A stretch of DNA of 64,000 nt from an uncultured Thermoplasmatales archaeon. GTDB taxonomy: Archaea; Thermoplasmatota; E2; DHVEG-1. Under the pieces are notes generated by a model, which saw nothing but the letters and a program-made list of their open reading frames with translations, had not been told where the DNA came from and did not search any database. Below are positions 4,383 through 52,755 of the stretch, one piece after another (the first letter of the stretch is position 1; each line of letters opens with the position of its first letter). The DNA lies in the NCBI GenBank assembly GCA_964517155.1, contig CAZFAZ010000049.1, positions 3,012 through 67,011 on the forward strand, written 5' to 3'. Position numbers and translations under genes: made by a program.

Positions 4383-4455
4383 ATGTATCTTGTCCCTGAA
4401 AATATTTTAATATAAATTTATTATATAATAATACGTTTAAAAATCTTGTGTTATG

Positions 4456-6057: not shown

Positions 6058-6135
6058 ATTTTTCTATAAGACTAAATCAATAATGTGTTTATAATTTTTT
6101 TAAAAAACCTAAAAAATAATTTTTTTTTACTATTT

Positions 6136-6762: not shown

Positions 6763-6903
6763 ATCTTTCTTTCAGCCTTTTAAATAAAATTTTTATAAAG
6801 ATAGTTTTATGAAACTATATAAGTAGGTTTTATATTTAAATGTTTTAACGATAATCATAAAAAAGATAAACAAGTTATCCCATTTAGGATTAAAAAAAGT
6901 ATT

Positions 6904-7896: not shown

Positions 7897-7920
7897 AAAA
7901 AAATTTAATGAGGAGTTTTT

Positions 7921-9231: not shown

Positions 9232-9532
9232 AGGACGTTATAAGGTTTTTCTTGATAAAAGAAAACTAGGTGATGATTTAATCTATATTCTTGGTGGTGG
9301 TGAAAAATCTCATGTTGGCGGAGCTGTACTCTGTGTTCCTGGAGAAAAACCACATGTTTTAACTTATGAAAATCATCATGACTTTATTGTTTTAACGCCA
9401 ATTGCCGAGGCTGCTTGTAAAAAATATAATAAAACAGTTATTGCAATTGGTGGTATACACATAGATAATGCTGCAAAAGAAGAAATTAATCTTATTGTAA
9501 ATAATTGTAAGGAGTTAGTAAAATGTATTTAA
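9212..9532 (+). CDS. Conserved-looking small protein of unknown function embedded in mevalonate cluster
   Basis: 106-aa ORF overlapping the end of the UbiD-like gene and start of the AcnX large subunit (translational coupling); Gly-rich LIYILGGGEKSHVGGAVL motif; not a UbiX-like flavoprotein. Confidence 0.4.
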   Translation: MMISSGKGRYKVFLDKRKLGDDLIYILGGGEKSHVGGAVLCVPGEKPHVLTYENHHDFIVLTPIAEAACKKYNKTVIAIGGIHIDNAAKEEINLIVNNCKELVKCI

Positions 9533-10707: not shown

Positions 10708-11094
10708 ATGAAAGGACGAACAATTTCACCTGGGAAAGTTCAAGGAACTGCTATTATTTCTCCTGATCCAATTGGTTTTTATGGGGGGATTGATGCTAAA
10801 ACTGGTATTGTAATTGAGAAAGGTCATCCTCTGGAGGGTAAAAAAATTACAGGTAAAATACTTGTTTTTCCTTGTGGTAAAGGTTCAACTGTGGGTTCTT
10901 ATGTTATTTATGGTCTTGCAAAAAATGGTGTGGCGCCTTTAGGAATTATTAATAAAGAAACTGAAACAATTGTTGCAACTGGTGTGATTCTTGCAGGTAT
11001 TCCTTGTGTTGATAAGATTGATATTTCAAAGATTAAAACAGGTGATACTCTAGTTCTTGATGCAACTAAGGGAATTGTTGATATTAAAAAATAG
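10708..11094 (+). CDS. AcnX-type (DUF126) small subunit, candidate phosphomevalonate dehydratase small subunit
   Basis: 128 aa; GGIDAKTG ... FPCGKGSTVGSYVIYGLAKNGVAPLGII motif typical of aconitase-X swivel subunit; start codon abuts stop of large subunit. Confidence 0.7.
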   Translation: MKGRTISPGKVQGTAIISPDPIGFYGGIDAKTGIVIEKGHPLEGKKITGKILVFPCGKGSTVGSYVIYGLAKNGVAPLGIINKETETIVATGVILAGIPCVDKIDISKIKTGDTLVLDATKGIVDIKK

Positions 11095-35620: not shown

Positions 35621-36358
35621 TTATGCAGGTATTTTGTAAATTTTCATATAGATTGCCCCGCCAAAAGTGTATAAAAATACAGCAATTAAAAGAGACATTG
35701 GAGCAAAACCATAATGCTCTCTGGCAAATAAAATAGTTAAAATTATTAATAAAAACGCAGCAGCATTCATTTTTTTATTTGTCTTTGGAAAAACAAAATC
35801 AGATGCCATAAGTGCACCCATAATTACAACAGCGGGTAAAATAAAGATAAAATCAACTTTTAAATAAGAAAGAATAAGCAGGATAATCGCACTTGCACTT
35901 GCAGGAAGACCAACATATATCTTTTTTTCTTTCATAACATTAAAACTTGCTAGACGAACTATTCCAAAAAACAAAAAAAGTCCTACTGCTATAAAAAGAT
36001 ACAACGTACTATAAATATTATCAGTTAAATGATTAGAATAAACTACAAATATAAAAACAGCAGGTGCAACAACCATGCTGGTCATATCAGCCATAGATTC
36101 AAGATAAGAGCCTATCTCGCTTTTACCTACTAATCTAGCAAGAATGCCATCAAGGCCATCTGCTAAAAGACCTAGCATAATCAATGAAAGAGAAATATGA
36201 ATGCGAAATTCAAGATCACCGGCATAGTCTAAAAATAAAACAATAACTGCAAAGATACCAAAAACTGCATTTGTAATAGAAATAAAATCAGCAATTGATA
36301 ACAGTTTAAGCATTGATTTCTGCAATTTTATCCTCACCTGCTTTAACTCTACAACCAA
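35621..36358 (-). CDS. CDP-alcohol phosphatidyltransferase (archaetidylserine synthase-like, PssA homolog)
   Basis: Polytopic membrane protein with D-G-x2-A-R...G...G...D motif (ADGLDGILARLVGKSEIGSYLESMAD). Confidence 0.7.
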   Translation of the reverse strand: MVVELKQVRIKLQKSMLKLLSIADFISITNAVFGIFAVIVLFLDYAGDLEFRIHISLSLIMLGLLADGLDGILARLVGKSEIGSYLESMADMTSMVVAPAVFIFVVYSNHLTDNIYSTLYLFIAVGLFLFFGIVRLASFNVMKEKKIYVGLPASASAIILLILSYLKVDFIFILPAVVIMGALMASDFVFPKTNKKMNAAAFLLIILTILFAREHYGFAPMSLLIAVFLYTFGGAIYMKIYKIPA

Positions 36359-36977
36359 TTCTAACAGTTATATTCTTAATTTTTGCAGAGGGTAGATATA
36401 CATCAACACGCGAACCCAATCTGATAATGCCAATACGCTTTCCTTTTTTTACAAAATCATCTTTTTTAATATATGGTACAATTCGGCGGGCAAGAGTACC
36501 TGCTATCTGAACTATTTTGATAAAACCAATACTAGTTTCTGCAATTATTACAATTCGCTCATTTTTTTCAGATTCTTTTTTAAAAGCAGGTAGATGAAAA
36601 CCAGAGAAATGAGAAATACTTTTTATTTTTCCGTCAAAAATCATGCGGTTAACATGAACATTTTGAATATTCATAAAAGTAGAAATCATAAAACATTTGC
36701 CGATATCTTTGTCAATAAATTCTTTTATCTCTCTTATTTTTCCATCTGCACAAGCAACAATGCCTTCTGCTGTCTTTCTTTGTGGATCGCGGAAAAAAAC
36801 AAGAAAAAAACCTGTTAATAAAAACAGTAAAACAGAAACAAACAATAAAACAAAACCAACAGAGCTCTGCAGATACATAACTGATATAATTAGCATTATC
36901 AGGGCAGGTATAAAAGCAGATAAAATCCATGATTTGCAGTCTTTTGCAATTTTCATTTTTCTAATTTTTTCTCCCAA
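36306..36977 (-). CDS. psd: Phosphatidylserine (archaetidylserine) decarboxylase proenzyme
   Basis: N-terminal TM, catalytic region with LGSRVD (LGST-type pyruvoyl cleavage motif); about 223 aa short-type Psd. Confidence 0.7.
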   Translation of the reverse strand: MGEKIRKMKIAKDCKSWILSAFIPALIMLIISVMYLQSSVGFVLLFVSVLLFLLTGFFLVFFRDPQRKTAEGIVACADGKIREIKEFIDKDIGKCFMISTFMNIQNVHVNRMIFDGKIKSISHFSGFHLPAFKKESEKNERIVIIAETSIGFIKIVQIAGTLARRIVPYIKKDDFVKKGKRIGIIRLGSRVDVYLPSAKIKNITVRIGCRVKAGEDKIAEINA

Positions 36978-37971
36978 TTATTTTCTTAAACATTTTTTCA
37001 AGTGGGCCGTTTCTTTTATAGATATCTGTTAACGAAATTATTTCATCAAAAACTTCTGGAATAATTTTTATAACAATTAAAAGAAGAATTATTAAAGCAA
37101 TTAGGCTGCCTGCTTTTGCAATAATATTATGTGCCATATTAAAATCGGTAATGTTTCGCCCAACAAGAAAAGCAACCATTGCGTTTCTGAAAAGATTGAG
37201 AATATAAACTGGGACAACTGTTACAAGCAAACCGATAAATCTTCTTTTCATTTGTATCTTGGGAATAACACCTATCATCCCAACAAAAATAACTAGTGAT
37301 TGTATACCTGTGCATGCAAAAATTATTGTTACAACATAATGTCCATTGAGACTTATGCTGGAACCTTGAACTGTTGCATTGCCTGCTATCGTATTTAAAA
37401 TCCATGTACTTTGCTCGGCTACACGGTGTATCAGCCATTCTGCCAAATTGATTCTAGGTATATTTATGGAGGTAAATATAAAATTTAAATTCCAAGGGCC
37501 AAAAACTATCCTTTCAATTCCGAAATAAATGATTCCTGCAATAGCAGACGCACCAGTTATCCAATTCAAACAGCTAATTGTTTCCTTTCTTAGATATGAT
37601 AACCATTCATGATAAGCAAGATAAAATAAAACATAAACACCAACTACACAAACAACTCCATTAAAGATATCTCCACCTTCATTTGCATATAAACTCAGAG
37701 GTTGAGTGGACCAATAAAATGCAAAAATAATCCAACCAACGATTTTTAGAATTTTTCCGTAATCTTTTTTATCAAATAAAAACCCAATTAGTAACAAAAC
37801 AAGACCTAAAAAGATAGGTATCTGAATTAAAGATTTAACAGAATCTGGTGGACTTTTAGGATAATACAGATATCCTAAAACAAGTAATATAGTAGGAACT
37901 ATAATAAAAAATAAAGAAAGAATTTGATTGCTGGTTTTATACTCTTTTGATGTCATGCCTCTTATTCTCAC
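36961..37971 (-). CDS. Archaeosortase/exosortase-family membrane protein (ArtA-like)
   Basis: 8 TM helices; active-site-like ACTGIQSLVIF (compare exosortase ACSGIRSL) and downstream LNLFRNAMVAF Arg motif; adjacent to pssA/psd homologs. Confidence 0.6.
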   Translation of the reverse strand: MRIRGMTSKEYKTSNQILSLFFIIVPTILLVLGYLYYPKSPPDSVKSLIQIPIFLGLVLLLIGFLFDKKDYGKILKIVGWIIFAFYWSTQPLSLYANEGGDIFNGVVCVVGVYVLFYLAYHEWLSYLRKETISCLNWITGASAIAGIIYFGIERIVFGPWNLNFIFTSINIPRINLAEWLIHRVAEQSTWILNTIAGNATVQGSSISLNGHYVVTIIFACTGIQSLVIFVGMIGVIPKIQMKRRFIGLLVTVVPVYILNLFRNAMVAFLVGRNITDFNMAHNIIAKAGSLIALIILLLIVIKIIPEVFDEIISLTDIYKRNGPLEKMFKKIIGRKN

Positions 37972-38022
37972 ATATAAATCCTATTTAATAGAATTTTTAT
38001 AAAAAGAAAATAAATAGGGTTA

Positions 38023-39093
38023 TTAAAAACCCAACATACTAAGAACTGGTTTATACCATTCGCTGTATATATTCATTAGCTGATAGTCCCATATTATACA
38101 TATTAGCCCGACTAACCCAAGTAATGTAATCCAAAGCCAGTATATTCCAACGATTTGATCTATTTTTAAACGAGCGATAGCAACACGAATAAGAGTCACT
38201 GAAAATAACACTACAAGCAATACTTTTATAAGATAAAACACAAAGTCGACTGAAATTGCAGGTATGTTTTCAAGGCCTAAAAACCCTGATAGATTATATG
38301 GGAAAAACAATGCAACAATAATACTTGCCATAACAACAGTTTTAACACCATCGGTAAGATAAAACATGCCAAGGTTCCTACCAGAGTATTCGGCAAGAAG
38401 ACCACCAGCAAGTTCTGTTTCTGCTTCTGGTGAATCAAATGGTATTTTAGATAGTTCTGCGGGTGTTACAATAACAATTACTAAAAGTAGTATTATAAAA
38501 CCTATGAATCCAATTATTCCTAAACTACCCCATAATGGATACTGTGAAATAACTGCTAGTGAAAAAACATTTTCACCAACTGTTTGAACATTGTTTTTTA
38601 AAGCCCATGCAATAGTAACAATAATTATTGCTAGTGGAAACTCATAAGCAATCATAGTTGCCATTTCACGTTGTGCACCAATTGTTGCATAGGTACTACC
38701 GCTTGCAAAACCACCGATTACCATTGCAAGACTTGGAATCATCAATAAATAAAGAACTAATATTAAATCACCGCTGCCATCTGCAATAGGTGCGATGCTG
38801 CCAATTGGTAAATAAAGCAAAATGGCAATTGTTCCAACAAGTCCTATCAATGGTGCCCAATTAAAAACCCAGGGTATAGCATTATCTGGCACTATGTTTT
38901 CTTTTGTAAAAAGTTTTACAATGTCTCTGAAAGGCTGCCTAATTGGTGGGCCGATACGGCCCTGCATATGCGCAGAAAGTTTTCTATCGATACCCTTATA
39001 GATTAAACCAAAAAAGATGCCAAATATTGTAAGACCAATAGTTCCTATCACCAGTGTTAAAAACTCCAGTGAAAAGCCTTGCATGTCAACCAT
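38023..39093 (-). CDS. NuoH/MbhM-like membrane subunit
   Basis: RIGPPIRQPFRDIVKLFTKENIVP matches NuoH/ND1 signature (R.GP...G..Q...D..KL..KE); 8 TM. Confidence 0.7.
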   Translation of the reverse strand: MVDMQGFSLEFLTLVIGTIGLTIFGIFFGLIYKGIDRKLSAHMQGRIGPPIRQPFRDIVKLFTKENIVPDNAIPWVFNWAPLIGLVGTIAILLYLPIGSIAPIADGSGDLILVLYLLMIPSLAMVIGGFASGSTYATIGAQREMATMIAYEFPLAIIIVTIAWALKNNVQTVGENVFSLAVISQYPLWGSLGIIGFIGFIILLLVIVIVTPAELSKIPFDSPEAETELAGGLLAEYSGRNLGMFYLTDGVKTVVMASIIVALFFPYNLSGFLGLENIPAISVDFVFYLIKVLLVVLFSVTLIRVAIARLKIDQIVGIYWLWITLLGLVGLICIIWDYQLMNIYSEWYKPVLSMLGF

Positions 39094-39094
39094 T

Positions 39095-39445
39095 TTAGAT
39101 CACTCCTATAACAATGAATAATATTCCTAATATTATCACAAACCACAGTACATAATCACTAGTGTTACCTGTATGCATTTTTTCTAAAGCATTATACATA
39201 CTTTTTAAAGCCTGAGTAAAACCCCAATAAAGGTTACTTCCTTTTACATGCATTTCATCTTTACTATATTCAGGGTTACCAGATAAAAATGCTTTAGTCT
39301 GCTCTGTACCTTTTTTGTAGTTTGTTTTACCAAAACCTCTTATTATGTATACTAAAAGTAATGCTATAACTATCGCAAGTCCTAATGCAAGTGGACTCCA
39401 GAAACCGCTACCTGTTTCTAAACTTTTTAAGAAAGCATCTATCAT
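39095..39445 (-). CDS. Small membrane subunit of Mrp/Mbh module (MbhI-like)
   Basis: 116 aa, 2-3 TM; positional equivalent of MbhI. Confidence 0.4.
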   Translation of the reverse strand: MIDAFLKSLETGSGFWSPLALGLAIVIALLLVYIIRGFGKTNYKKGTEQTKAFLSGNPEYSKDEMHVKGSNLYWGFTQALKSMYNALEKMHTGNTSDYVLWFVIILGILFIVIGVI

Positions 39446-39448
39446 AAT

Positions 39449-41041
39449 TTATGCACCTCCTATTATTGAACTAATATAGCTGGTTGTATTTTGTAGTGCT
39501 TCTGCTGCAGGTGTTACAAGATTATCAACTATTATATTTGGGAATAAACCAATAAATATTATAATGCAAGCAATTAAAGCCATTGCAATAAGCATACTTT
39601 TTGGTACTTCTTTGACATTTTTTAAAGCTGGAATTTCTGGTCCTAAAAAGACAGATTGGAAAATTTTTACAAAAACTGCAAGAATTATAATGCTGCATAG
39701 TATTGCAATAATTGCTAGAATCGGGCTTATAACATATGTTGACTGATATATCATTAATTTTGAAGCAAAACCATTCATAGGTGGCATACCTGATACTGCC
39801 AAAAGTCCGATTAAGAAAAATATAGTTGTATATTTCATATTTCTTGCAAGGCCGCATAGTTTGTTTAGTGATGTTTGTTTTGTTGCATAATATATGGCTC
39901 CTGCTACGAAAAATAATAATCCTATATCAAGAGCATCATTTAATATATGAAATATTCCTCCTTTTAAAGATAGTGCGCCTGCTTTTATCATTTCAGGATC
40001 AGAACTTGAAATTGTAATCATAAATGAGCCAATTGCAAGAAACATGTAACCTATTTCTGCAACTGCAACATACGCAATCATCCTTTTAAAATCAGAGCGT
40101 TTAAGAGCCATAAAGACTCCGATAAAGATGCTGGCTACAGCAAGTGCAACTATCATAACTCCTATTAGTATATTTGGAATTATTATTGCTTTGGCATCTA
40201 GCAAGTTGCTCCCATAAATTGTAAAAATAATTCTTAAACCACCATATACGCTTGCAAGAGTTGTACCAACTAATACAACCGCTACAGATGAAGGAGATCT
40301 GCCATATGCATCAGGTATCCACATATGCATTGGTGCAAGACCTGATTTTAATGCAAGTGCGCCAATAAGCAGAACTAATGCTATTTTATCAAGTAAACTA
40401 TAACTTATATTATTTGCAATAACTGCCATATTCAAAGCATTATATTGACCGTAGAACATTCCTATTGCAAAAAGTATAAACAAGGCACCAATTGAGCTGA
40501 TGACAATATATTTAAAACCTGCTTGCACAGAAAATTTATTATCTGTTCTATAAGCAATTAATGCACAAGAAGAAATAGATGTAATTTCAAGAAATACAAA
40601 GAAGTTAAACAGATCGCCTGTTAGTATCATACCAAGCATACCTGTGGTCATCAGAAGAATTAATGCGTAGTATTTATCCTGGCCAGTTTCTTCTTTCATA
40701 AATCCCCATGAGTAAATCACTGCGGCAAGTGGTAAAATTGCAGCGATTAACGCCATAAAAGCATTCATGGCATCAATTTCAAATAAAATTCTAATTGCAT
40801 ATGCTGAGCTACCAGTTCCTATAACAGTTTGACTTCCGCCAAAAACATAAGTTACTATACCATTTGAAAGAACACTGTTGACCAGTAATAATATCAGTAG
40901 AGAAGTTAAGGCGGTAATTAGAATTACAAAAATATTTCTAAGTTTATCATTGATTTTACCAACAAGCGGTGTAAGAAAAGCACCAAGCAATGGTATTGCA
41001 ACGATAAGCGCTGGAGAATGCTCTGTTAAAAAATCTATCAT
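39449..41041 (-). CDS. mrpD: Mrp antiporter subunit D / NuoL-M-N-like proton-pumping subunit
   Basis: 530 aa, 14 TM; GLAPMHMWIPDAYGRSPSSVAVVLVG motif typical of NuoN/MrpD. Confidence 0.8.
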   Translation of the reverse strand: MIDFLTEHSPALIVAIPLLGAFLTPLVGKINDKLRNIFVILITALTSLLILLLVNSVLSNGIVTYVFGGSQTVIGTGSSAYAIRILFEIDAMNAFMALIAAILPLAAVIYSWGFMKEETGQDKYYALILLMTTGMLGMILTGDLFNFFVFLEITSISSCALIAYRTDNKFSVQAGFKYIVISSIGALFILFAIGMFYGQYNALNMAVIANNISYSLLDKIALVLLIGALALKSGLAPMHMWIPDAYGRSPSSVAVVLVGTTLASVYGGLRIIFTIYGSNLLDAKAIIIPNILIGVMIVALAVASIFIGVFMALKRSDFKRMIAYVAVAEIGYMFLAIGSFMITISSSDPEMIKAGALSLKGGIFHILNDALDIGLLFFVAGAIYYATKQTSLNKLCGLARNMKYTTIFFLIGLLAVSGMPPMNGFASKLMIYQSTYVISPILAIIAILCSIIILAVFVKIFQSVFLGPEIPALKNVKEVPKSMLIAMALIACIIIFIGLFPNIIVDNLVTPAAEALQNTTSYISSIIGGA

Positions 41042-41388
41042 TATTCTTCATCCTCCTTTATTTTACGAACATCAAGTGTGTGATAGTGTCTGTAAATATG
41101 AATAACTAGTGTAAGCATCAACGCAAGTACTGCAACACCTATGACAATACTTGTAAGAGTCAAAGCCTGTGGAACAGGAAGACTCATAAGCCCACCAGGT
41201 GAACTAGTATAAATCGGTGCAGTACTATCTGCGCGAAAACCAAGTGTTATAAGAAATAGGTTTACGCCACTTTCAATAAGAGTGATGCCAATTACGATTT
41301 TGATCAGATTACGTTTAAAAAGCACAGTATACAGACCAATAAGAATTAGCCCAGCAACTGCAAGATAAGGGACATAAAAGACGTTCAT
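41041..41388 (-). CDS. mrpC: Mrp antiporter subunit C (NuoK-like)
   Basis: 115 aa, 3 TM, NuoK-like GITLIESGVNLFLITLG. Confidence 0.7.
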   Translation of the reverse strand: MNVFYVPYLAVAGLILIGLYTVLFKRNLIKIVIGITLIESGVNLFLITLGFRADSTAPIYTSSPGGLMSLPVPQALTLTSIVIGVAVLALMLTLVIHIYRHYHTLDVRKIKEDEE

Positions 41389-41876
41389 TTGCTATCTTCC
41401 CCCTTGCTTTTATTTGTTGCATATGCCATAACAAGAATTATTGCAAATAAACCTGCAATCACCTTGAGCCCAACAGCAAAATTCATTAGAGGAAGAACAC
41501 CGGCTGTGTTAATATCTGCAGCAGTGCTTTGATATGCTACTTGTGTTCCAAATATCCCAAAGAAATTTGTTGTATTTGCTAGGAAGTTAAGGAAAAAAAC
41601 AGAGCCAAACACAAGTCCAAAGAAACCTAGGCTGATAAATGCAAGTGCTCCTAAACTTTCAATTATGGACAACTGTTTTTCTTTGACTTTTTTCATAGTC
41701 CAAACTGAACCATGTGCAATAAGAAGCATAGCACAAGCTGAAGCAACAACTGCGCCACCTTGAAAACCACCACCAGGTGTAAGATGACCATGAGCAATAA
41801 CATAAAGCCCAAAAATAGCAACTAATGGAAAAGTAATATTGGACATTGTTTTTGCAATTTTACTCATCCCGCTCAT
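41385..41876 (-). CDS. mrpB: Mrp antiporter subunit B
   Basis: MnhB signature HLTPGGGFQGG. Confidence 0.75.
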   Translation of the reverse strand: MSGMSKIAKTMSNITFPLVAIFGLYVIAHGHLTPGGGFQGGAVVASACAMLLIAHGSVWTMKKVKEKQLSIIESLGALAFISLGFFGLVFGSVFFLNFLANTTNFFGIFGTQVAYQSTAADINTAGVLPLMNFAVGLKVIAGLFAIILVMAYATNKSKGEDSK

Positions 41877-42145
41877 TTTTTTAGCCTCCTAAAAAGAATA
41901 ATTACGCCTGCAACAGCTGCAAATAAAACAGTCGCCTCTCCAAGTGTATCAAAACCTCTATAGTCAAATACTACAGATGTTACAGCATTGTTTGCACCAA
42001 CTTCTGTTTGTGTATTATCAATAATATAATCATCCATATTTGAAACAGTAGGATTACCAAATTGATGTATGCTGAAAGCAGTAACAATAAAGCAAACTGC
42101 AACTATCGCAAAAAACACTAATGCAACTATATTTCTGTTATTCAT
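41873..42145 (-). CDS. Small Mrp/Mbh membrane subunit (MbhE-like)
   Basis: 90 aa, 2 TM, overlapping-stop coupling within Mrp operon. Confidence 0.45.
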   Translation of the reverse strand: MNNRNIVALVFFAIVAVCFIVTAFSIHQFGNPTVSNMDDYIIDNTQTEVGANNAVTSVVFDYRGFDTLGEATVLFAAVAGVIILFRRLKK

Positions 42146-42399
42146 TATATTTCATCCTCCATGCGTTTTGTTGCTTTAATTGCAATAATTAAAATTGCAG
42201 TAGTAAGACAAGCACCTACTCCTGCCTCAGCGATTGCAACATCTGGTGCCTGAAGTATAAAAAACTCTAAAGAAAGCAGTAGACTCATTGCAGCTATAGC
42301 AATCGCAGCGGCGATAAGATCTTTAAGATAAACTGCAAAAATTGCAGAAGCTATAATTAAAATAGGTAACACAATATGAATTATATCAATTAAATCCAT
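42145..42399 (-). CDS. Small Mrp/Mbh membrane subunit (MbhD-like)
   Basis: 84 aa, 3 TM; operon position. Confidence 0.45.
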   Translation of the reverse strand: MDLIDIIHIVLPILIIASAIFAVYLKDLIAAAIAIAAMSLLLSLEFFILQAPDVAIAEAGVGACLTTAILIIAIKATKRMEDEI

Positions 42400-42806
42400 T
42401 ATTTTTTCGCCTCCTTTTTTATGTTTTTCTTTTCCTTAAGATCTTTACTTACATTTTTTTCTAAATGATCAACGACTGCACCAACAGGTTTAACACCACT
42501 GCGATGAGCAGCACGAGCAATAGCATGAGCACCAGTTGGATTAGTAAGAAGTATTGCTACAAGTGCAAAAGCTGTATGAATAGCCATAACAGAACCATTC
42601 ATATCGCCATAAAACCACATTTTAAAACCTATGAGTATCACTGATCCGCAGATAAAAATTGAACCAAACGTAGTACATTTAGTCCCAGCATGAAGACGAG
42701 TGTAAACATCTGGAAAACGAAGAAGGCCCAGACCTGCAAGTAAGTTAAAAAATATACCTATTATCAAAAAGAAAAATATCAAGAAAAAGAGAATCGTTTC
42801 TATCAT
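42399..42806 (-). CDS. mrpG: Mrp antiporter subunit G
   Basis: MnhG motif GLLRFPDVYTRLHAGTKCTTFG. Confidence 0.75.
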   Translation of the reverse strand: MIETILFFLIFFFLIIGIFFNLLAGLGLLRFPDVYTRLHAGTKCTTFGSIFICGSVILIGFKMWFYGDMNGSVMAIHTAFALVAILLTNPTGAHAIARAAHRSGVKPVGAVVDHLEKNVSKDLKEKKNIKKEAKK

Positions 42807-43076
42807 TTATATATCCCCTCCTTCCAGATACTTTGCAATAAATAAGGTTGATATAAAAGATAAAAACGCATAAACAATTGCAACATCAATATATATTACT
42901 GATTCAACGTAAACTCCAAAAAGCACCATGCTGACAATTACTATTGTATTTATAGTATCAAGACCGACTACTCGATCTGGTGCGGTTGGGCCTTTTATTA
43001 TCCTTATTATTGCCATTATAGCCGCTAAGAAAAGAGTGCCAATTACTGCTAAAAATACAGATGGATCTATATTCAT
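42807..43076 (-). CDS. mrpF: Mrp antiporter subunit F
   Basis: MnhF motif IIKGPTAPDRVVGLDTINT. Confidence 0.75.
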   Translation of the reverse strand: MNIDPSVFLAVIGTLFLAAIMAIIRIIKGPTAPDRVVGLDTINTIVIVSMVLFGVYVESVIYIDVAIVYAFLSFISTLFIAKYLEGGDI

Positions 43077-43612
43077 TCTGCAATCCTCCTAACCCATTTA
43101 TCAAAACTCCCACAAATATATTTACAATCAACAGGAGTTTTCTTTAACGCTTCATTTTTAACATTTATCCAGTGAATATACAAATCATTATTCTCTTCAT
43201 CGATATCAACACTTAGAGTACCTGGTGTAAGAGTAATAGAGTTTGCAAGCATTGCAACACCAAGATCAGTTTTTAGATTAGGTGAAATCCTTACGATACC
43301 TGGGTTTATTTTACCAGTGATTACTCTGTAAGCAACATCTATATTTGCTTTTGCAAGAGAAATAAAAAATGGTCCAATAATATAAGCTAAGAACATAAAC
43401 CATCTTACAGGATTTGCCATTCTAAAGCTTTTTTTAACAAAAAGTTTCCTTGCAATAAATCCAACAATCATAGATAAAATAATTCCAAATATTATTTCTT
43501 CATAACTCCATAAGTTGAGTCCTAAAAAATTTGATCCTTCTGTTGCACTACCTATTGTAAACATCAGGTATGCAATGAAACTAACAAGGGTTGTAACAAC
43601 AAATGCTAACAT
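43073..43612 (-). CDS. mrpE: Mrp antiporter subunit E
   Basis: 179 aa, 2 N-terminal TM then soluble domain; first gene of operon, as MbhA/MnhE. Confidence 0.6.
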   Translation of the reverse strand: MLAFVVTTLVSFIAYLMFTIGSATEGSNFLGLNLWSYEEIIFGIILSMIVGFIARKLFVKKSFRMANPVRWFMFLAYIIGPFFISLAKANIDVAYRVITGKINPGIVRISPNLKTDLGVAMLANSITLTPGTLSVDIDEENNDLYIHWINVKNEALKKTPVDCKYICGSFDKWVRRIAE

Positions 43613-43757
43613 ATTTTTCCTCCCGGTAATATTACATTTAGTTAGTTCAGTGTAATTATAAGGGTTTTTAAAATGTTATGGTTTTAAAAAGACAAAACAT
43701 CAAAAGTAATATACAGCAAACATATATATGTGATAAAACCAAGGGAAGTTAATTTAA

Positions 43758-47865: not shown

Positions 47866-50800
47866 TTGAACAACATGGGTGGGGATTTTTCAAATAACAT
47901 AGCAATAAGTAAAAACATGCAACAATACTTTGCAACTCTACAAGAGCAAATAGATGAATGTTACAAAATAGCAGTACAAGCAAGAAAAAAAGGATTAGAT
48001 CCAGAATACAACGTGGAAATACCACAAGCATTAGACCTTGCTGCTCGTGTAGAAGAACTAGTCGGACCAAAAAACATAGCGCCAAAAATACGTGAAACAA
48101 CAAAAAAAATACAAAACCGTGAACTCGTAAGCCTGGAACTTGCAAAATATATTGCAAGCGGCAAAAAATATAAATTCAAAACGACAGAACAAGCATTAGA
48201 TCAAGCAATAAGAACCGGTCTTGCAATACTTACAGAAGGCGTTCTAGTAGCACCACTTGAAGGAATAGCAGATGTAAAACTAGGGGCAAACAAAGACGGG
48301 ACAAACTATGTAGACCTTTATTTTTCAGGACCAATCCGCTCAGCAGGCGGAACTGGTCAGGCGATGAGTGTACTAATCGCAGATGTAGTAAGACGCGAGC
48401 TAAAAATAGGTAGATATCAACCAACAGATGGAGAAATAGAACGATACAAAGAAGAAATACCACTATACAAAAGAGCACAACACCTGCAGTATACTCCAAA
48501 TGTAGATGAAATAGATAAAATTGTAAGAAATTGTCCTATATGTATAAATGGAGAAGGTACAGAAGATGAAGAAGTAACAGGATACCGAGACCTGCCAAGG
48601 ATATCAACAAACCGACTTAGAGGCGGAGCATGTCTAGTAATAGCAGAAGGATTATGCTTAAAAGCACCAAAAATAATAAAACATGTAAAAAAACTCAGAC
48701 TCAAAGGATGGGATTTTTTAGATATATTTACACATAAAGAACAAACAGAAAATGAGAAAACAAATGGTATATCAGAAATACTTCCCTCAACAAAATACAT
48801 AGGTGAAGTAATAGCAGGGAGACCAGTATTTAGTCACCCTTCAAGAAAAGGAGGGTTCAGGTTAAGATACGGGCGAGCAAGAACCGCAGGGCTTGCATCA
48901 ACCGCAGTAAACCCTGCATCAATGTATGTACTAGATGAATTCATAGCTGTAGGAACACAACTAAAAACAGAAAGACCGGGTAAAGGAACAATAGGTACAC
49001 CCTGCACAACAATAGAAGGACCAATAGTACTTTTGCAAAACGGAGACTTAGTTCAATTCAATCATCCGAAAGAAATAAAAAAAATAGATATAAAAAAAAT
49101 TATAGACTTAGGTGAAATACTAATACCATTTGGTGAATTCATAGAAAACAACTCAATATTACCTGATTCAAGTTATGTCTACGAATGGTGGATACAAGAT
49201 CTACAAAAAAAACTAAAAACATTACCAGAAAAATACGACTTAAAAAATGTAGCTGAATCAGATAAAAAAACTTTTGAAAAAATAAAACAGCAAACAGATG
49301 AAGATATAAATCTAGAAAAACCAACATGGGGACAAGCATTAAACTTGTCAAAAAAATATGATATACCGCTTCATCCAAATTTCAATTTATTTTGGCATGA
49401 TCTAAAAACAGAAGATATCATAAAACTTGCAAAATATATAATTGAAAATGCAAGTTTTTCAGAAGAAAAACTAATTCTTCCAATAAATGATGAAATAAAA
49501 GAAATACTAATTGAACTAGGAGTATTACACAAACTAAGAGAAGAAAACTTTATTGTAGAACACTATGCAAAACCATTGATTTATTGTTTAGGGTTAGAAA
49601 TAAAAGAAAGTAAAATAATCAAAACAGAACGATTTACAAAAACTAACAAAAATGAAACAAACCCTGTAAAACTTGTATCAAATTTATCAAATATAAAAAT
49701 AAACCCGCGTGCACCTTTTAGAATAGGAACACGCATGGGTAGACCCGAAAAAGCAGCAGCAAGAAAAATGCGGCCGCCACCACATGTACTTTTTCCAATT
49801 GGAAACTATGGCGGAAATCAAAGATTAATAAGAAATGCAGCAGCCGCAGGAATAATAGAAGTTGAAGCAGGAACAAGAATTTGCCCGAAATGTAACAAAA
49901 AAACATACCGGCTTTTCTGCAGTTGTGGGGCGCATACAGAAATAGGAAATGGGCGAATAGAGCCACAGCAAATAAACCTTGCAGATGAACTAATAAAAGC
50001 TCAAAAATTCATAAAAGAAAGAATACTGCCTGAAACAATAAAAGGAGTAATAGGAACAATATCAAAACATAAAACACCGGAGCCCTTGGAAAAAGGGATA
50101 CTGCGAGCAAAACATAATGTGTATGTGTTTAAAGATGGAACAATTCGCTTTGATATGACCGATGCACCACTTACACATTTCAAACCAAGAGAAATACATG
50201 TTTCCATAGATAGATTACAGGAACTTGGGTATAAAACAGATTATCTGGGGGAAGAACTTGTTAGTGATGAACAAATATGTGAACTAAAGGTACAAGATGT
50301 AATAATTTCAAAAGCCTGTGCTGAATATTTTACTCAAGTTGCAAGATTCTTAGATGATTTACTTGTAAAATTTTATGATATGAGTCGTTTTTATAATATA
50401 CGTAAACTTGAGAATTTAACAGGACACTTGACTGTTGGTCTTGCGCCTCATACTTCCGCAGGGTCGCTCTCTAGAATAATTGGTTTTACAGATGCTCAAG
50501 TATGTTACTCTCATCCATTTTATCATGCAGCGAAAAGAAGGAATTGTCTTTCCGGAGATACTGAAATTTTAGTATCAAATTCAGATGATATGTTTAATAG
50601 ATGTTCTTTAAGTGATTTGTATAAGGAAATTAATTCTTCTGAAACTGTTGTAGACGATTTTGATACAAAAATGAAAAAGATATTTGATGTTAAAACGTTA
50701 TCTTTAAATCCTTTAGATGGAAGAAATGAAGTCAAAAAAATAAAATCAATTATTAAATCAAAATCTCCTAAACATCTTATTAAAGTTAAGTTATCCTCGG

Positions 50801-52755
50801 GTAGGACATTTGTTGCTTCACCGTATCATAATTTGCTTGTTTTATCTGATGGAAGGATTATTCGTAAGAAAGCAGTTCAATTACAAAAAAATGACATGTT
50901 TTTTGTATCAAAAGATGTAAATCTTGCTGAAAAGGATATTAAAGAAATCGACCTATTTGAAGAGGTTATCAATCTTGGTTATAAAGAAATTGTAGTACGA
51001 AATATAAGAGATTTTGTACAAAATTGTGTAGATTATTTAGGTGGATTAAAATCGGCTTCAGAAAAACTGAAATTAAATAAGAAAACTTTTTCGAATTATA
51101 TCTATAGAGATAGCATACCTTTTGAAGTACTCGATAAATTGACAAAAATTAGTAAGAAAGCTTTAAAAGATGTGCCCGAAAACTGTTATTTAGGTGTTAA
51201 AAGAGATCATGCAAAAATACCTAGAATAATAAAAGTCGATAATCATCTAATGCGTTTACTTGGTTATTATATTTCAGAGGGTCATGCAAGAAAGAAGGAT
51301 AAAGAATGTTATCAACTTGGATTTGCATGTACTGAAAAAGAAATTAGAGATGATATTGTTGAATGTATAAAGTATACATTTGGTATAAGGCCGTATATTA
51401 CAAAAAAAAGTGTATCAATATGTAATCATCTGGTTTATGATTTTTTTGTAAATGTATTAAAAGTTGGTAAGAAAGCAAAGAGTAAACAAATTCCAACCAA
51501 ATTTACATTGCTTCCAAAAAATAAGATAAAGCATCTTTTAAGAGCCTATTTTTCAGGGGATGGTTCTGTTGAAAAAAACAGACTGCATATAACATGTTCT
51601 TCTGCAAATAAACTTCTTTTGAGAGATATCGGCTTTCAGCTACTAAGATTTGGCATCTTTTATCGAATGAAAAAGGAAGAAAGAAAACCTTCAGGTATTG
51701 CAAAAAAATATTATGATAAAAAAGGAATCACCACTACTTTTAAACTTTATTATTTATCGATTCGCTCATCATATGCAAAAAAATTCTGTGAAGAGATTGG
51801 TTTTGCGCTTACAAGAAAACAAGTACGAATTAAGTCTTTATTGTCAAAAGAAAGAAAGCCAAGAGTTGAGTCTTTTGGTGATTTTGTAATTGATAAAATT
51901 AAAGATATTTCTTCTATAAAATCAGATTCAGATTATGTTTATGATATAGAAGTAGAAGAGCTACATAACTTTATGATAAACGATTTCTTAATAACAAATA
52001 ACTGCGATGGCGATGAAGACGGGCTCATGCTTTTATTAGATGCGCTTCTTAACTTTTCACATTCTTACATCCCTGATAAACGCGGTGGTAAAATGGATTT
52101 GCCTTTGATTCTTACCACTCGTATCGATCCTTCTGAAGTAGATAAAGAAGCACATAATATTGATACACTTTCTCGTTATCCACTTGATTTTTATAATGCA
52201 ACTCTTGTTCATGAGCATTCTAAAGAACTTGAGAAAAGTATGGGGCTTGTAGCATCTCGTCTTGGCACAGAGCTGCAGTATGAGCATTTTGGTTTTACAC
52301 ATGATACAGAGGATATTTCACAGGGCCCTGTTATGTCTAATTATAAGACTTTAAAGACTATGATGGATAAGATGAATGCACAGCTTAATTTGGCTGCTAA
52401 AATTCGTGCTGTTGATGAAGCTGATGTTGCATATAAGGTAATTGAGAGGCATTTTTTACCAGATATGCTTGGTAATCTTCGTGCTTTTAGTAAGCAGTCT
52501 GTTCGTTGTCCTAGTTGCAATATCGTTTATCGTCGTCCTCCTCTTCAGGGTGTTTGTACTATTTGTAAAGGTAAACTTACTCTTACGGTTCATGAGAAAT
52601 CTGTGAAGAAGTATCTTGAAATTTCAAAGGAGGTTGCTCAGCGTTATAATATTTCTCCTTATTCTCGTCAGCGTATCAAGCTTGTTGAAAAAGCTATTGA
52701 TTCACTTTTTATAAGTGATAAGGTTAAAACTACTAAACTTGATGATTTTTTTTAA
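47866..52755 (+). CDS. dp2: DNA polymerase D large subunit (DP2) containing one intein
   Basis: DP2 N-terminal region, Zn-binding Cys clusters, catalytic NCDGDEDG motif interrupted by intein; C-terminal CPSCN...CTICKG zinc finger. Confidence 0.9.
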   Translation: MNNMGGDFSNNIAISKNMQQYFATLQEQIDECYKIAVQARKKGLDPEYNVEIPQALDLAARVEELVGPKNIAPKIRETTKKIQNRELVSLELAKYIASGKKYKFKTTEQALDQAIRTGLAILTEGVLVAPLEGIADVKLGANKDGTNYVDLYFSGPIRSAGGTGQAMSVLIADVVRRELKIGRYQPTDGEIERYKEEIPLYKRAQHLQYTPNVDEIDKIVRNCPICINGEGTEDEEVTGYRDLPRISTNRLRGGACLVIAEGLCLKAPKIIKHVKKLRLKGWDFLDIFTHKEQTENEKTNGISEILPSTKYIGEVIAGRPVFSHPSRKGGFRLRYGRARTAGLASTAVNPASMYVLDEFIAVGTQLKTERPGKGTIGTPCTTIEGPIVLLQNGDLVQFNHPKEIKKIDIKKIIDLGEILIPFGEFIENNSILPDSSYVYEWWIQDLQKKLKTLPEKYDLKNVAESDKKTFEKIKQQTDEDINLEKPTWGQALNLSKKYDIPLHPNFNLFWHDLKTEDIIKLAKYIIENASFSEEKLILPINDEIKEILIELGVLHKLREENFIVEHYAKPLIYCLGLEIKESKIIKTERFTKTNKNETNPVKLVSNLSNIKINPRAPFRIGTRMGRPEKAAARKMRPPPHVLFPIGNYGGNQRLIRNAAAAGIIEVEAGTRICPKCNKKTYRLFCSCGAHTEIGNGRIEPQQINLADELIKAQKFIKERILPETIKGVIGTISKHKTPEPLEKGILRAKHNVYVFKDGTIRFDMTDAPLTHFKPREIHVSIDRLQELGYKTDYLGEELVSDEQICELKVQDVIISKACAEYFTQVARFLDDLLVKFYDMSRFYNIRKLENLTGHLTVGLAPHTSAGSLSRIIGFTDAQVCYSHPFYHAAKRRNCLSGDTEILVSNSDDMFNRCSLSDLYKEINSSETVVDDFDTKMKKIFDVKTLSLNPLDGRNEVKKIKSIIKSKSPKHLIKVKLSSGRTFVASPYHNLLVLSDGRIIRKKAVQLQKNDMFFVSKDVNLAEKDIKEIDLFEEVINLGYKEIVVRNIRDFVQNCVDYLGGLKSASEKLKLNKKTFSNYIYRDSIPFEVLDKLTKISKKALKDVPENCYLGVKRDHAKIPRIIKVDNHLMRLLGYYISEGHARKKDKECYQLGFACTEKEIRDDIVECIKYTFGIRPYITKKSVSICNHLVYDFFVNVLKVGKKAKSKQIPTKFTLLPKNKIKHLLRAYFSGDGSVEKNRLHITCSSANKLLLRDIGFQLLRFGIFYRMKKEERKPSGIAKKYYDKKGITTTFKLYYLSIRSSYAKKFCEEIGFALTRKQVRIKSLLSKERKPRVESFGDFVIDKIKDISSIKSDSDYVYDIEVEELHNFMINDFLITNNCDGDEDGLMLLLDALLNFSHSYIPDKRGGKMDLPLILTTRIDPSEVDKEAHNIDTLSRYPLDFYNATLVHEHSKELEKSMGLVASRLGTELQYEHFGFTHDTEDISQGPVMSNYKTLKTMMDKMNAQLNLAAKIRAVDEADVAYKVIERHFLPDMLGNLRAFSKQSVRCPSCNIVYRRPPLQGVCTICKGKLTLTVHEKSVKKYLEISKEVAQRYNISPYSRQRIKLVEKAIDSLFISDKVKTTKLDDFF
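50545..52002 (+). mobile_element. Intein (486 aa) with LAGLIDADG homing endonuclease inserted in DP2 catalytic motif
   Basis: Begins CLSGDTEILV after extein ...AAKRRN; ends ...VYDIEVEELHNFMINDFLITNN followed by extein CDGDEDG; LAGLIDADG blocks LLGYYISEGH and LRAYFSGDGS. Confidence 0.85.

What the first reader, a model, noticed from the sequence alone, without database searches (positions are those of the whole stretch)
38023..43612. Mbh-type Mrp module (MbhA-I plus NuoH-like MbhM) lacking any NuoB/C/D/I-type catalytic subunits
Ten co-directional membrane genes reproduce the order of the Pyrococcus Mbh membrane arm. The order is MrpE, F, G, two small subunits, MrpB (HLTPGGGFQGG), MrpC, MrpD, a small subunit, then a NuoH-like subunit with the R-GP...KLFTKE signature. 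The [NiFe] large and small subunits and the ferredoxin-like NuoI/NuoB homologs that always accompany MbhM in Mbh, Mbs, Mbc or Fpo-like complexes are absent. The next gene is an archaeosortase-like protein. A NuoH-like subunit normally forms the interface to the peripheral arm, so an orphan Mrp+NuoH module suggests either a peripheral module encoded elsewhere or an unknown partner.
Basis: partly seen in the sequence, partly recalled or inferred. Interest (0 to 1): 0.55.

Follow-up and report, generated by a model that had tools for sequence, protein, structure and literature searches.

The report
Split membrane-bound hydrogenase, membrane half
This ten-gene cluster is the membrane half of a hydrogen-producing, ion-pumping enzyme (MBH) of a sediment archaeon; relatives keep the catalytic half at a second locus, and this split layout was published in 2022, so the finding is real but not new.

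Summary
Window 43612..38023 (minus strand) carries ten tightly packed genes: MbhA-I (MrpE, F, G, MbhD, MbhE, MrpB, MrpC, MrpD, MbhI) and then a NuoH-like MbhM. No NuoB/C/D/I homolog lies in the cluster, in the 64-kb window, or within 10 kb beyond either end.

The arrangement is not an orphan and not new. The window comes from a Thermoprofundales (MBG-D, Thermoplasmatota) genome. Zhang et al. 2022 (Mol Biol Evol, PMC9585477) described this split: MbhABCDEFGHIM in one unit and the [NiFe] module MbhJKLN in another, in Thermoprofundales "Subgroup E".

I reproduced the main points:
- 73 related genome loci have MbhM directly after MbhI, or as far as the contig reaches.
- Methanomicrobiales relatives keep the canonical I-J-K-L-M-N order.
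- Four MAGs carry both units on different contigs.
- The MbhL homologs keep their [NiFe] cysteine motifs. They sit among hyp maturation genes or beside the ATP synthase operon.

The MbhM loops homologous to the loops at the peripheral-arm junction of MBH and complex I are its best-conserved parts. One sublineage has JKLN directly upstream of A-M. I therefore favour one 14-subunit hydrogenase encoded at two loci.

The window's own JKLN cluster was not located. Novelty: already known.

The parts
43613..43757 (-). Divergent intergenic region between thyX (plus strand) and mbhA. It probably holds the mbhA-M promoter and ribosome-binding site.
   Evidence: Read directly from the sequence. An A/T-rich TATA-like CTTATAATTA lies about 40 nt upstream of the ATG, and GGAGG lies 6 nt upstream. 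This is inference only; no archaeal promoter tool was available.
43073..43612 (-). mbhA (MrpE-like), 179 aa
   Evidence: PF01899 MNHE, E 3e-34. NCBIfam NF006245, 210 bits, above its cutoff of 192.
42807..43076 (-). mbhB (MrpF-like), 89 aa
   Evidence: PF04066, E 1e-19. NF009242, 108 bits, above its cutoff of 89.
42399..42806 (-). mbhC (MrpG-like), 135 aa
   Evidence: PF03334, E 1e-24. NF009312, 153 bits, above its cutoff of 122.
42145..42399 (-). mbhD, 84 aa
   Evidence: PF13244 MbhD, E 6e-17.
41873..42145 (-). mbhE, 90 aa
   Evidence: PF20501 MbhE, E 4e-11.
41385..41876 (-). mbhF (MrpB-like), 163 aa
   Evidence: PF04039 MnhB, E 4e-27. NF006248, 146 bits, above its cutoff of 92.
41041..41388 (-). 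mbhG (MrpC/NuoK-like), 115 aa
   Evidence: PF00420, E 2e-25.
39449..41041 (-). mbhH (MrpD/NuoN-like antiporter subunit), 530 aa
   Evidence: PF00361, E 3e-41. Best solved-structure match is 6CFW_H, E 3e-101. E143, K225 and K409 (P. furiosus numbering) are kept. TM11 reads H-x3-D-x2-D-[IV] in place of H-x3-H-x3-K.
39095..39445 (-). mbhI (NuoA-like linker subunit), 116 aa
   Evidence: NCBIfam NF053600 MbhI equivalog, 119.7 bits, above its cutoff of 95. Matches 6CFW_I, E 7e-9.
38023..39093 (-). mbhM (NuoH-like subunit that docks the peripheral arm), 356 aa
   Evidence: PF00146, 233 bits. Matches 6CFW_M, E 2e-52. E151 corresponds to P. furiosus Glu141M and is invariant. The TM1-2 and TM5-6 loops are the most conserved regions.
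37957..38022 (-). Intergenic region after mbhM. It holds an oligo-T run (TTTATTTTCTTTTT) and then a TATA-like stretch ahead of artA. It is the likely end of the mbh transcription unit.
   Evidence: Read directly from the sequence. Inference only.

Best explanation
The cluster encodes the complete membrane arm (MbhA-I plus MbhM) of a group-4 [NiFe] membrane-bound hydrogenase (MBH) of a Thermoprofundales (MBG-D) archaeon. In this lineage the four cytoplasmic subunits form their own cluster at a second locus: MbhJ (NuoB-like), MbhK (NuoC-like), MbhL ([NiFe] large subunit, NuoD-like) and MbhN (2x[4Fe-4S], NuoI-like).

The most likely mechanism is that the two sets of products assemble into one 14-subunit complex, as in Pyrococcus furiosus MBH:
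1. Reduced ferredoxin delivers electrons through MbhN and MbhJ to the NiFe site in MbhL.
2. H2 is released.
3. The MbhM/MbhI loops pass the reaction to MbhH and the Mrp-like MbhA-G module.
4. That module translocates H+ and Na+, and the gradient feeds the A-type ATP synthase.

What is shown: gene identities, the split layout, co-occurrence of both units in four MAGs, intact NiFe motifs, and the conservation pattern. What is inferred: assembly in trans, and the presence of JKLN in the window's own genome.
For:: every gene matches the corresponding MBH subunit. 6CFW chains M, H and I are the best solved-structure matches.

- 73 Thermoplasmatota loci have MbhM directly after MbhI. None has an MbhJ, K or L gene between them or an MbhN gene after MbhM.
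- The nearest outgroup is Methanomicrobiales (53-56% identical MbhM). Six of its nine loci show MbhJ-K-L upstream of MbhM and MbhN after it. Three of those six (L076, L078, L084) also show a recognisable MbhI ahead of J. The other three Methanomicrobiales contigs are short or garbled.

four MAGs carry both units on separate contigs.
- SM1-50: LSSI01000020.1 for the membrane arm; for JKLN, contig SMTZ1_10003021 (JGI+NCBI), which carries the MbhL that NCBI names for SM1-50.
- CAZGIV01: contigs ...132 and ...046.
- CAZTMK01: contigs ...017 and ...004.
- JAHWGJ01: contigs ...003 and ...021.

SM1-50 MbhL best matches 6CFW_L (E 2e-104). The RxCGxC motif is present in 120 of 120 Thermoplasmatota-type MbhL hits and DPCxSCxxR in 119 of 120.

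JKLN is flanked by HypE, with HypF, HypC, HypD and HycI nearby; in other lineages JKLN sits next to the A-type ATP synthase operon, an H+-PPase and a Na+/H+ exchanger.

- MbhM is as conserved as the other membrane subunits (median 68% identity to the window, against 48-55% for the neighbouring ArtA and Trm1).
- Its TM1-2 and TM5-6 loops are its most conserved parts (0.89 and 0.95 against 0.79 overall). These are the loops homologous to those at the peripheral-arm junction in MBH and complex I.
- 53 invariant residues are shared with canonical MbhM.

in L032 and L071 (and apparently L041, a contig that begins inside MbhL) JKLN lies directly upstream of A-M. That clade is nested within the split clade, which is consistent with selection for co-expression.

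Literature: Zhang et al. 2022 (PMC9585477) report the same split and its conservation.
Against: - The JKLN cluster of the window's own genome was not found. It is absent from the window and from 10 kb beyond each end. It was not recognisable among the top 120 MbhL hits.
- Zhang et al. report that only 71.2% of Thermoprofundales genomes encode the group 4d large subunit.
- The same paper argues for independent function. MbhABCDEFGHIM alone improved growth of the antiporter-deficient E. coli KNabc at 0.1-0.2 M NaCl. The two units also had different transcript abundances in four MAGs.
- No physical evidence of assembly exists.
- The tree is neighbour-joining on two proteins, without support values.
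Confidence: 0.72

Rival explanations
1. Independent modules, the reading of Zhang et al. 2022. The MbhA-I,M complex works alone as a Mrp-like Na+/H+ antiporter driven by the membrane potential. MbhJKLN works alone as a soluble ferredoxin-dependent hydrogenase that conserves no energy.
For: PMC9585477:
- MbhABCDEFGHIM from FT_bin5.232 partly rescued E. coli KNabc at 0.1-0.2 M NaCl.
- The peripheral-arm genes were transcribed much more strongly than the membrane-arm genes in four MAGs.
- Recombinant MbhL gave H2 in a methyl-viologen assay.

The two units are unlinked in most genomes. All 64 MbhH sequences of the split type replace the TM11 His and Lys with two Asp, which could reflect an altered ion pathway.
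Against: - A pure antiporter has no obvious need for MbhM and MbhI, which have no counterpart in Mrp antiporters. Yet both are retained in all loci.
- The loops of MbhM homologous to those at the peripheral-arm junction are its most conserved regions.
- Salt rescue in E. coli shows that the arm can move Na+. It does not show that the arm works alone in vivo.
- Transcript ratios do not test assembly.
- H2 evolution from an MbhL expressed alone in E. coli, without the small subunit, is weak evidence.
- L032 and L071 (and apparently L041) have both units adjacent again.
Confidence: 0.2
2. Different partner. The MbhM-containing membrane arm docks a peripheral module other than MbhJKLN. Examples would be a formate dehydrogenase, CO dehydrogenase or sulfur-reductase type module, as in the Thermococcales Mrp-Mbh relatives. 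It would then form a new respiratory complex.
For: No partner is encoded at the locus. MbhM-type subunits serve several different modules in Thermococcales (general knowledge). JGI annotates the protein as 'formate hydrogenlyase subunit 4', but that is only a generic orthology label.
Against: - MbhM, MbhH and MbhI are closest to P. furiosus MBH, not MBS or FHL. For MbhM the scores are 6CFW_M 182 bits, 6U8Y_M 108 bits and 7Z0S_D 96 bits.
- The only co-occurring NuoBCDI-type cluster found in the four checked MAGs is a bona fide MbhJKLN with NiFe motifs and hyp genes.
- No alternative module appears in any of about 100 flanking regions.
Confidence: 0.05
3. Decaying remnant. The membrane arm is a relic left after loss of the hydrogenase and is on its way to pseudogenisation.
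For: According to PMC9585477, 28.8% of Thermoprofundales genomes lack a detected group 4d large subunit.
Against: All ten ORFs are intact and tightly packed. The same ten genes are conserved at 61-77% median identity across 73 loci, higher than the neighbouring housekeeping genes. MAG incompleteness can explain the missing MbhL calls.
Confidence: 0.03

Closest known systems
Split MBH of Thermoprofundales (MBG-D) Subgroup E: MbhABCDEFGHIM unit plus MbhJKLN unit (Zhang et al. 2022, Mol Biol Evol 39:msac213, PMC9585477)
   Same: Same ten genes in the same order, with MbhM directly after MbhI. Same phylum-level lineage: relatives include the Thermoprofundales MAGs SM1-50, SG8-52-3 and M11B2D. The JKLN unit is found elsewhere in the same MAGs.
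   Different: Nothing substantive. The window's assignment to Subgroup E is inferred from its relatives, not from a phylogenomic placement. Its own JKLN cluster was not located. The paper's main text does not mention the variant with JKLN directly upstream of A-M (L032, L071), the two JKLN neighbourhoods, or the MbhH Asp-Asp substitution.
Pyrococcus furiosus membrane-bound hydrogenase MBH (mbhA-N; PDB 6CFW)
   Same: All ten membrane subunits have their best solved-structure match here, where tested: M 2e-52, H 3e-101, I 7e-9. The order A-I is identical. Key residues are kept: Glu141M (E151 here), and E143, K225 and K409 in MbhH.
   Different: In P. furiosus mbhJKL lie between mbhI and mbhM, and mbhN follows mbhM, in a single operon. 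Here they are absent from the locus. In MbhH TM11, H350 and K354 are replaced by Asp and Val/Ile, with an extra Asp at position 353.
Canonical Mbh of Methanomicrobiales (Methanocalculus, Methanocorpusculum)
   Same: These are the nearest non-Thermoplasmatota relatives of this MbhM (53-56% identity). They have the same Mrp-like genes upstream.
   Different: They keep the contiguous I-J-K-L-M-N order. They also keep K354 of MbhH TM11 (5 of 5) and H350 (4 of 5).
Mrp (CPA3) Na+/H+ antiporters (MrpABCDEFG)
   Same: MbhA, B, C, F, G and H are homologs of MrpE, F, G, B, C and D. MbhD and MbhE correspond to the C-terminal part of MrpA (NCBIfam hits). The membrane arm of a relative conferred salt tolerance in E. 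coli (PMC9585477).
   Different: Mrp has no NuoH-like or MbhI-like subunit. It also has a full-length MrpA antiporter-like subunit, which is missing here.

Membership tests
MBH-type (group 4d) membrane-bound [NiFe] hydrogenase, membrane arm | All ten membrane subunits MbhA-I and MbhM are present, in the order A-I | tested here: met
   Pfam and NCBIfam give one matching family per gene, including the MbhD, MbhE and MbhI models. Order read.
MBH-type (group 4d) membrane-bound [NiFe] hydrogenase, membrane arm | MbhM, MbhH and MbhI are closer to MBH than to MBS, FHL or complex I | tested here: met
   6CFW chains are the top hits. MbhM scores 182 bits against 108 bits for MBS 6U8Y_M and 96 bits for FHL 7Z0S_D. 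MbhH scores 343 bits against 159 bits for 6U8Y_H.
MBH-type (group 4d) membrane-bound [NiFe] hydrogenase, whole enzyme | Catalytic subunits MbhJ, K, L and N with [NiFe] cysteine ligands are encoded in the same genome | tested here: inconclusive
   Met in four related MAGs, with NiFe motifs in 119-120 of 120 homologs. Not found in the window or within 10 kb of either end. The rest of this genome could not be searched.
MBH-type (group 4d) membrane-bound [NiFe] hydrogenase, whole enzyme | A single contiguous mbhA-N operon (J, K and L between I and M; N after M) | tested here: not met
   MbhM starts 1 nt after the MbhI stop, and an archaeosortase follows MbhM. The same holds in 73 related loci.
Split MBH of Thermoprofundales Subgroup E (Zhang et al. 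2022) | The MbhABCDEFGHIM unit is separated from the MbhJKLN unit | tested here: met
   Shown for the locus, and for related MAGs.
Split MBH of Thermoprofundales Subgroup E (Zhang et al. 2022) | The genome belongs to Thermoprofundales Subgroup E by phylogenomics or AAI | not testable with these tools
   Only indirect evidence. All 75 non-methanogen loci from the genome scan are labelled as Thermoplasmatota-type MAGs (three of the records are titled Methanobacteriota and one Euryarchaeota). They include SM1-50, SG8-52-3 and M11B2D, which Zhou et al. 2018 list as Thermoprofundales. The paper's supplementary tables are not held.
Mrp (CPA3) antiporter | Seven-subunit MrpA-G set with full-length MrpA and no NuoH-like subunit | tested here: not met
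   Only fragments equivalent to the MrpA C-terminus are present (MbhD and MbhE). There is one antiporter-like subunit, plus NuoH-like and MbhI subunits.
Respiratory complex I / Fpo-type 11-subunit complex | NuoA, J, K, L, M and N membrane set with NuoH | tested here: not met
   No NuoJ, L or M equivalents. Mrp-type MbhA-G are present instead. The FpoH and NuoH NCBIfam models score far below their cutoffs (144 against 475; 150 against 305).

The most novel reading that the evidence does not exclude
The split is functional rather than merely genomic. In this lineage the MbhM/MbhI-containing arm would have become an autonomous ion translocator. Its MbhH carries two Asp where the canonical enzyme has a His and a Lys, which could mean a changed ion specificity. 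It would bind the hydrogenase module only conditionally, or not at all. That would be a natural, living example of the modular steps proposed for the origin of complex I.
Probability: 0.15. Interest if true: 0.6.

Novelty: already known. Interest (0 to 1): 0.2.

Why it matters
MBH is regarded as a close relative of the ancestor of respiratory complex I. A lineage that encodes the membrane arm and the catalytic arm separately is a natural experiment on how the two modules are coupled. Thermoprofundales are among the most abundant sediment archaea, so their ferredoxin-to-H2 energy conservation matters for sediment hydrogen budgets.

This case was published in 2022 with first experiments, so the finding adds no new kind of system. 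One question remains open: do the two units assemble into one coupled pump, or work apart?
- the interface loops of MbhM are its most conserved parts;
- the two units lie adjacent again in one nested sublineage;
- MbhH carries a lineage-wide Asp-Asp substitution in TM11.

Tried and rejected
1. Catalytic genes near the window. I extended both window ends by 10 kb through exact-protein look-ups and ran tblastn with MbhJ, K, L and N against the window and all loci. Nothing was found.

2. The window's own MbhL. I searched with a Thermoplasmatota MbhL and screened hits by source and sample. The listing of cluster members returned no accessions. Look-ups of P0163, P0179 and P0176 landed in other samples. 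The window's population is seen in JGI samples 3300077317, 3300077993, 3300077746, 3300077562, 3300077522, 3300077563 and 3300001533, and in SRR2989655. It was not among the top 120 hits.

3. Same-contig linkage. I compared the longest-contig lengths of the MbhM hits and the MbhL hits. There were no matches, so no distance between the two units could be measured, not even for the two complete chromosomes (CP070724.1, CP070798.1).

4. The paper's supplementary tables (subgroup assignment, per-MAG gene presence) are not held.

5. Functional link to the downstream genes, considered and rejected. Archaeosortase, PS decarboxylase and CDP-alcohol phosphatidyltransferase form a separate, conserved module. 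An oligo-T run and a TATA-like element separate it from mbhM.

6. 'JKLN directly upstream of A-M' as the ancestral intermediate, considered and rejected. The NJ tree nests that clade inside the split clade, so it looks secondary. The tree has no support values.

7. The chance of hitting the window's own MbhL among thousands of near-equidistant homologs was low.
Full report
**1. What is in the window**

Ten ORFs lie head to tail on the minus strand between 43612 and 38023. Neighbours overlap by 1-4 nt or are at most 3 nt apart. Each ORF matches one family in Pfam and NCBIfam:
- MNHE/MrpE, 179 aa
- MrpF, 89 aa
- MrpG, 135 aa
- MbhD, 84 aa
- MbhE, 90 aa
- MnhB/MrpB, 163 aa, with HLTPGGGFQGG
- Oxidored_q2/MrpC, 115 aa
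- Proton_antipo_M/MrpD, 530 aa
- MbhI, 116 aa (NF053600 equivalog, 119.7 bits against a cutoff of 95)
- NADHdh/NuoH, 356 aa (PF00146, 233 bits)

The best solved-structure matches of the last three proteins are the H, I and M chains of the Pyrococcus furiosus membrane-bound hydrogenase, 6CFW. The E-values are 3e-101, 7e-9 and 2e-52. MBS (6U8Y), formate hydrogenlyase (7Z0S) and complex I all score well below.

The gene after MbhM is an archaeosortase (PF09721). A phosphatidylserine decarboxylase and a CDP-alcohol phosphatidyltransferase follow it. tblastn with MbhJ, K, L and N from relatives finds nothing in the window or in the loci that extend 10 kb beyond each end.

**2. How widespread the arrangement is**

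A scan of one genome per species returned 80 loci. Of these, 71 are labelled as Thermoplasmatota, Thermoplasmata or Thermoplasmatales MAGs. Four more are titled Methanobacteriota (three) or Euryarchaeota (one) but share the same gene synteny. Their MbhM is 64-85% identical to the window's. They include SM1-50, SG8-52-3 and M11B2D, which Zhou et al. 2018 (PMC6461988) list as Thermoprofundales (Marine Benthic Group D).

In 73 of these loci an MbhM gene could be labelled, and it directly follows MbhI or follows as far as the contig reaches. No J, K or L gene lies between them and no N gene lies after MbhM. The wider synteny is usually the same as in the window: PolD-small, DUF424, Mut7-C, RibD_C, ThyX | MbhA-M | ArtA, PSD, CDP-OH transferase, NTPase, Trm1.

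The remaining nine loci are Methanomicrobiales, with 53-56% identical MbhM. Six of them show MbhJ-K-L upstream of MbhM and MbhN after it, and three of those six also show a recognisable MbhI ahead of J. Their MbhL carries RICGICG and DPCLSCTDR. The window's layout is thus a lineage-wide derived state, not an assembly artefact.

**3. It has been described**

Zhang et al. 2022 (Mol Biol Evol 39:msac213, PMC9585477) analysed 146 Thermoprofundales genomes. They report that in "Subgroup E" the MBH cluster is separated into a peripheral unit, MbhJKLN, and a membrane unit, MbhABCDEFGHIM. They state that this arrangement was unique among GenBank genomes.

Their experiments were as follows:
- The membrane unit of MAG FT_bin5.232 improved growth of the antiporter-deficient E. 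coli KNabc at 0.1-0.2 M NaCl.
- Recombinant MbhL evolved H2 in vitro.
- Transcript levels of the two units differed.

They concluded that the two units function independently.

**4. Independent check of the second locus**

In L071 and L032 a complete MbhJ-K-L-N block lies directly upstream of MbhA. L041 shows the same layout but its contig begins inside MbhL. I used the L071 MbhL as a query. It returned 120 homologs at 74-95% identity. Several are named by NCBI as from Thermoplasmatota MAGs, including SM1-50 (P0193) and M9B2D.

Exact-sequence look-ups show a four-gene unit in every case, with no Mrp-type gene in the available flanks:
- Oxidored_q6, about 145 aa
- Complex1_30kDa, about 179 aa
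- NiFeSe_Hases/Complex1_49kDa, about 408 aa
- 2x[4Fe-4S] ferredoxin, 133 aa

Four MAGs hold both units on different contigs:

| MAG | Membrane-arm contig (locus) | JKLN contig (locus) |
|---|---|---|
| SM1-50 | LSSI01000020.1 (L016) | SMTZ1_10003021 (L092) |
| CAZGIV01 | ...132 (L024) | ...046 (L096) |
| CAZTMK01 | ...017 (L039) | ...004 (L099) |
| JAHWGJ01 | ...003 (L021) | ...021 (L103) |

Two of these (CAZTMK01 and JAHWGJ01) share the window's full flanking synteny.

SM1-50 MbhL best matches 6CFW_L (E 2e-104). The N-terminal NiFe cysteine motif is present in 120 of 120 homologs and the C-terminal motif in 119 of 120.

The JKLN unit sits in one of two neighbourhoods:
- Among maturation genes: HypE upstream, HypF downstream, and HypC, HypD and the HycI protease nearby (L099, L103, L105).
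- Divergent from the A-type ATP synthase operon, followed by a PF06695 protein, an H+-pyrophosphatase, a CBS protein, a Na+/H+ exchanger and aIF5B (L091, L092, L094-L098, L101, L111, L112).

**5. One enzyme or two?**

Several observations favour continued assembly into a single MBH.

First, MbhM and MbhI have no counterpart in Mrp antiporters. In 6CFW they form the junction to the peripheral arm, with conserved loops in MbhM, MbhI and MbhL (PMC8679088). Both are retained everywhere.

Second, MbhM is under strong constraint. Its median identity to the window is 68% across 73 loci. The other Mbh membrane subunits range from 61% to 77%, while the neighbouring ArtA, Trm1 and CDP-OH transferase range from 44% to 55%.

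Third, the two loops homologous to those at the peripheral-arm junction in MBH and complex I are the best-conserved parts of MbhM. The mean top-residue fraction is 0.89 for the TM1-2 loop (residues 33-70) and 0.95 for the TM5-6 loop (residues 212-246), against 0.79 overall. Of the 100 residues invariant in the split clade, 53 are identical in the canonical Methanomicrobiales and P. furiosus MbhM. They include E151, which corresponds to Glu141M.

Fourth, the clade in which JKLN abuts MbhA (L032, L071, L041, together with L049) is nested inside the split clade in a neighbour-joining tree of MbhM+MbhH. The membrane unit there lies at the aIF5B locus, where JKLN sits in its sister group. This looks like a secondary re-joining and would suggest selection for co-expression. 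The tree has no support values, so this point is tentative.

The published salt-tolerance result shows that the arm can move Na+. It does not exclude assembly with JKLN in vivo. I put about 0.7 on a single, trans-encoded 14-subunit hydrogenase and about 0.2 on truly independent modules.

**6. Limits**

I could not locate the JKLN unit of the window's own genome. Zhang et al. found the large subunit in 71.2% of their (incomplete) genomes, so absence here cannot be excluded. Assignment to Subgroup E is by association with relatives, not by phylogenomics.

**7. Verdict**

The "peripheral module encoded elsewhere" alternative is supported. The system is already known.

Three details are not mentioned in the paper's main text: the two conserved JKLN neighbourhoods, the adjacent JKLN-ABCDEFGHIM variant, and a lineage-wide change in MbhH TM11. 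In that change H-x3-H-x3-K becomes H-x3-D-x2-D-[V/I]. The His-to-Asp and Lys-to-Val/Ile changes are in 64 of 64 sequences and the extra Asp is in 62 of 64, whereas Methanomicrobiales keep the Lys in 5 of 5 and the His in 4 of 5.

Noticed in passing
window 39449-41041 (mbhH), motif GGIFHILNDALDIGLLF; the same column in 64 related loci: In TM11 of the antiporter-like subunit, the canonical H346-x3-H350-x3-K354 of P. furiosus MbhH reads H-x3-D-x2-D-[V/I]. The H350-to-D and K354-to-V/I changes are in 64 of 64 split-type sequences and the extra Asp is in 62 of 64. Methanomicrobiales Mbh keeps K354 in 5 of 5 and H350 in 4 of 5. This could reflect a change of ion pathway or specificity. I do not know whether Thermoprofundales with a contiguous MBH share it.
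   Followed up: partly
L071 675-3257 with 3458-8917; L032 2785-5364 with 5566-11026; L041: In one Thermoplasmatota sublineage MbhJ-K-L-N lies directly upstream of MbhA-I,M, about 200 nt away. This gives a permuted but contiguous JKLN-ABCDEFGHIM cluster next to aIF5B. L041 begins inside MbhL, so only L, N and the membrane arm are seen there. A neighbour-joining tree nests this clade inside the split clade, which suggests a secondary re-joining.
   Followed up: partly
L091, L092, L094-L098, L101, L111, L112 (ATP synthase context); L099, L100, L103-L105 (hyp context): The stand-alone MbhJKLN unit occupies two conserved neighbourhoods. In one it is divergent from the A-type ATP synthase operon and followed by a PF06695 protein, an H+-PPase, a CBS protein, a Na+/H+ exchanger and aIF5B. 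In the other it sits between HypE and HypF, with HypC, HypD and HycI nearby.
   Followed up: partly
L091 5963-6307, L092 8518-8862, L101 8528-8773: An IS200-like Y1 transposase gene (PF01797) sits between the ATP synthase operon and MbhJ in SM1-50-type loci. A mobile element right at the edge of the relocated hydrogenase unit.
   Followed up: no
window 35621-37956 (minus strand) and about 60 related loci: Archaeosortase (PF09721), phosphatidylserine decarboxylase (PF02666) and CDP-alcohol phosphatidyltransferase (PF01066) form a conserved trio directly downstream of mbhM. This probably reflects the lipid-anchoring pathway linked to archaeosortase A and is unrelated to the hydrogenase.
   Followed up: no
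window 47875-52755 (plus strand): The PolD large subunit (DP2) ORF is 1626 aa. It appears to contain an intein with a LAGLIDADG-type homing endonuclease (CLSGDTEILV ... LLGYYISEGHA ... VHNFMINDFLITNNC). Judged by eye from the translation only.
   Followed up: no
L086 5547-6563, compared with L085 (10 kb upstream of the window start): The Mono-Lake-like 'MLSed' contig carries a DDE_Tnp_1 transposase and four small ORFs just upstream of the window's first gene. The otherwise identical JGI contig L085 lacks them. This is population-level insertion polymorphism.
   Followed up: no
window 53859-55637, compared with L088 18192-20300: The longest ATG-initiated ORF for the MCM helicase in the window is 592 aa. 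Gene calls on contigs of the same population give 702 aa. The true start probably lies upstream of the first ATG, or uses an alternative start codon.
   Followed up: no
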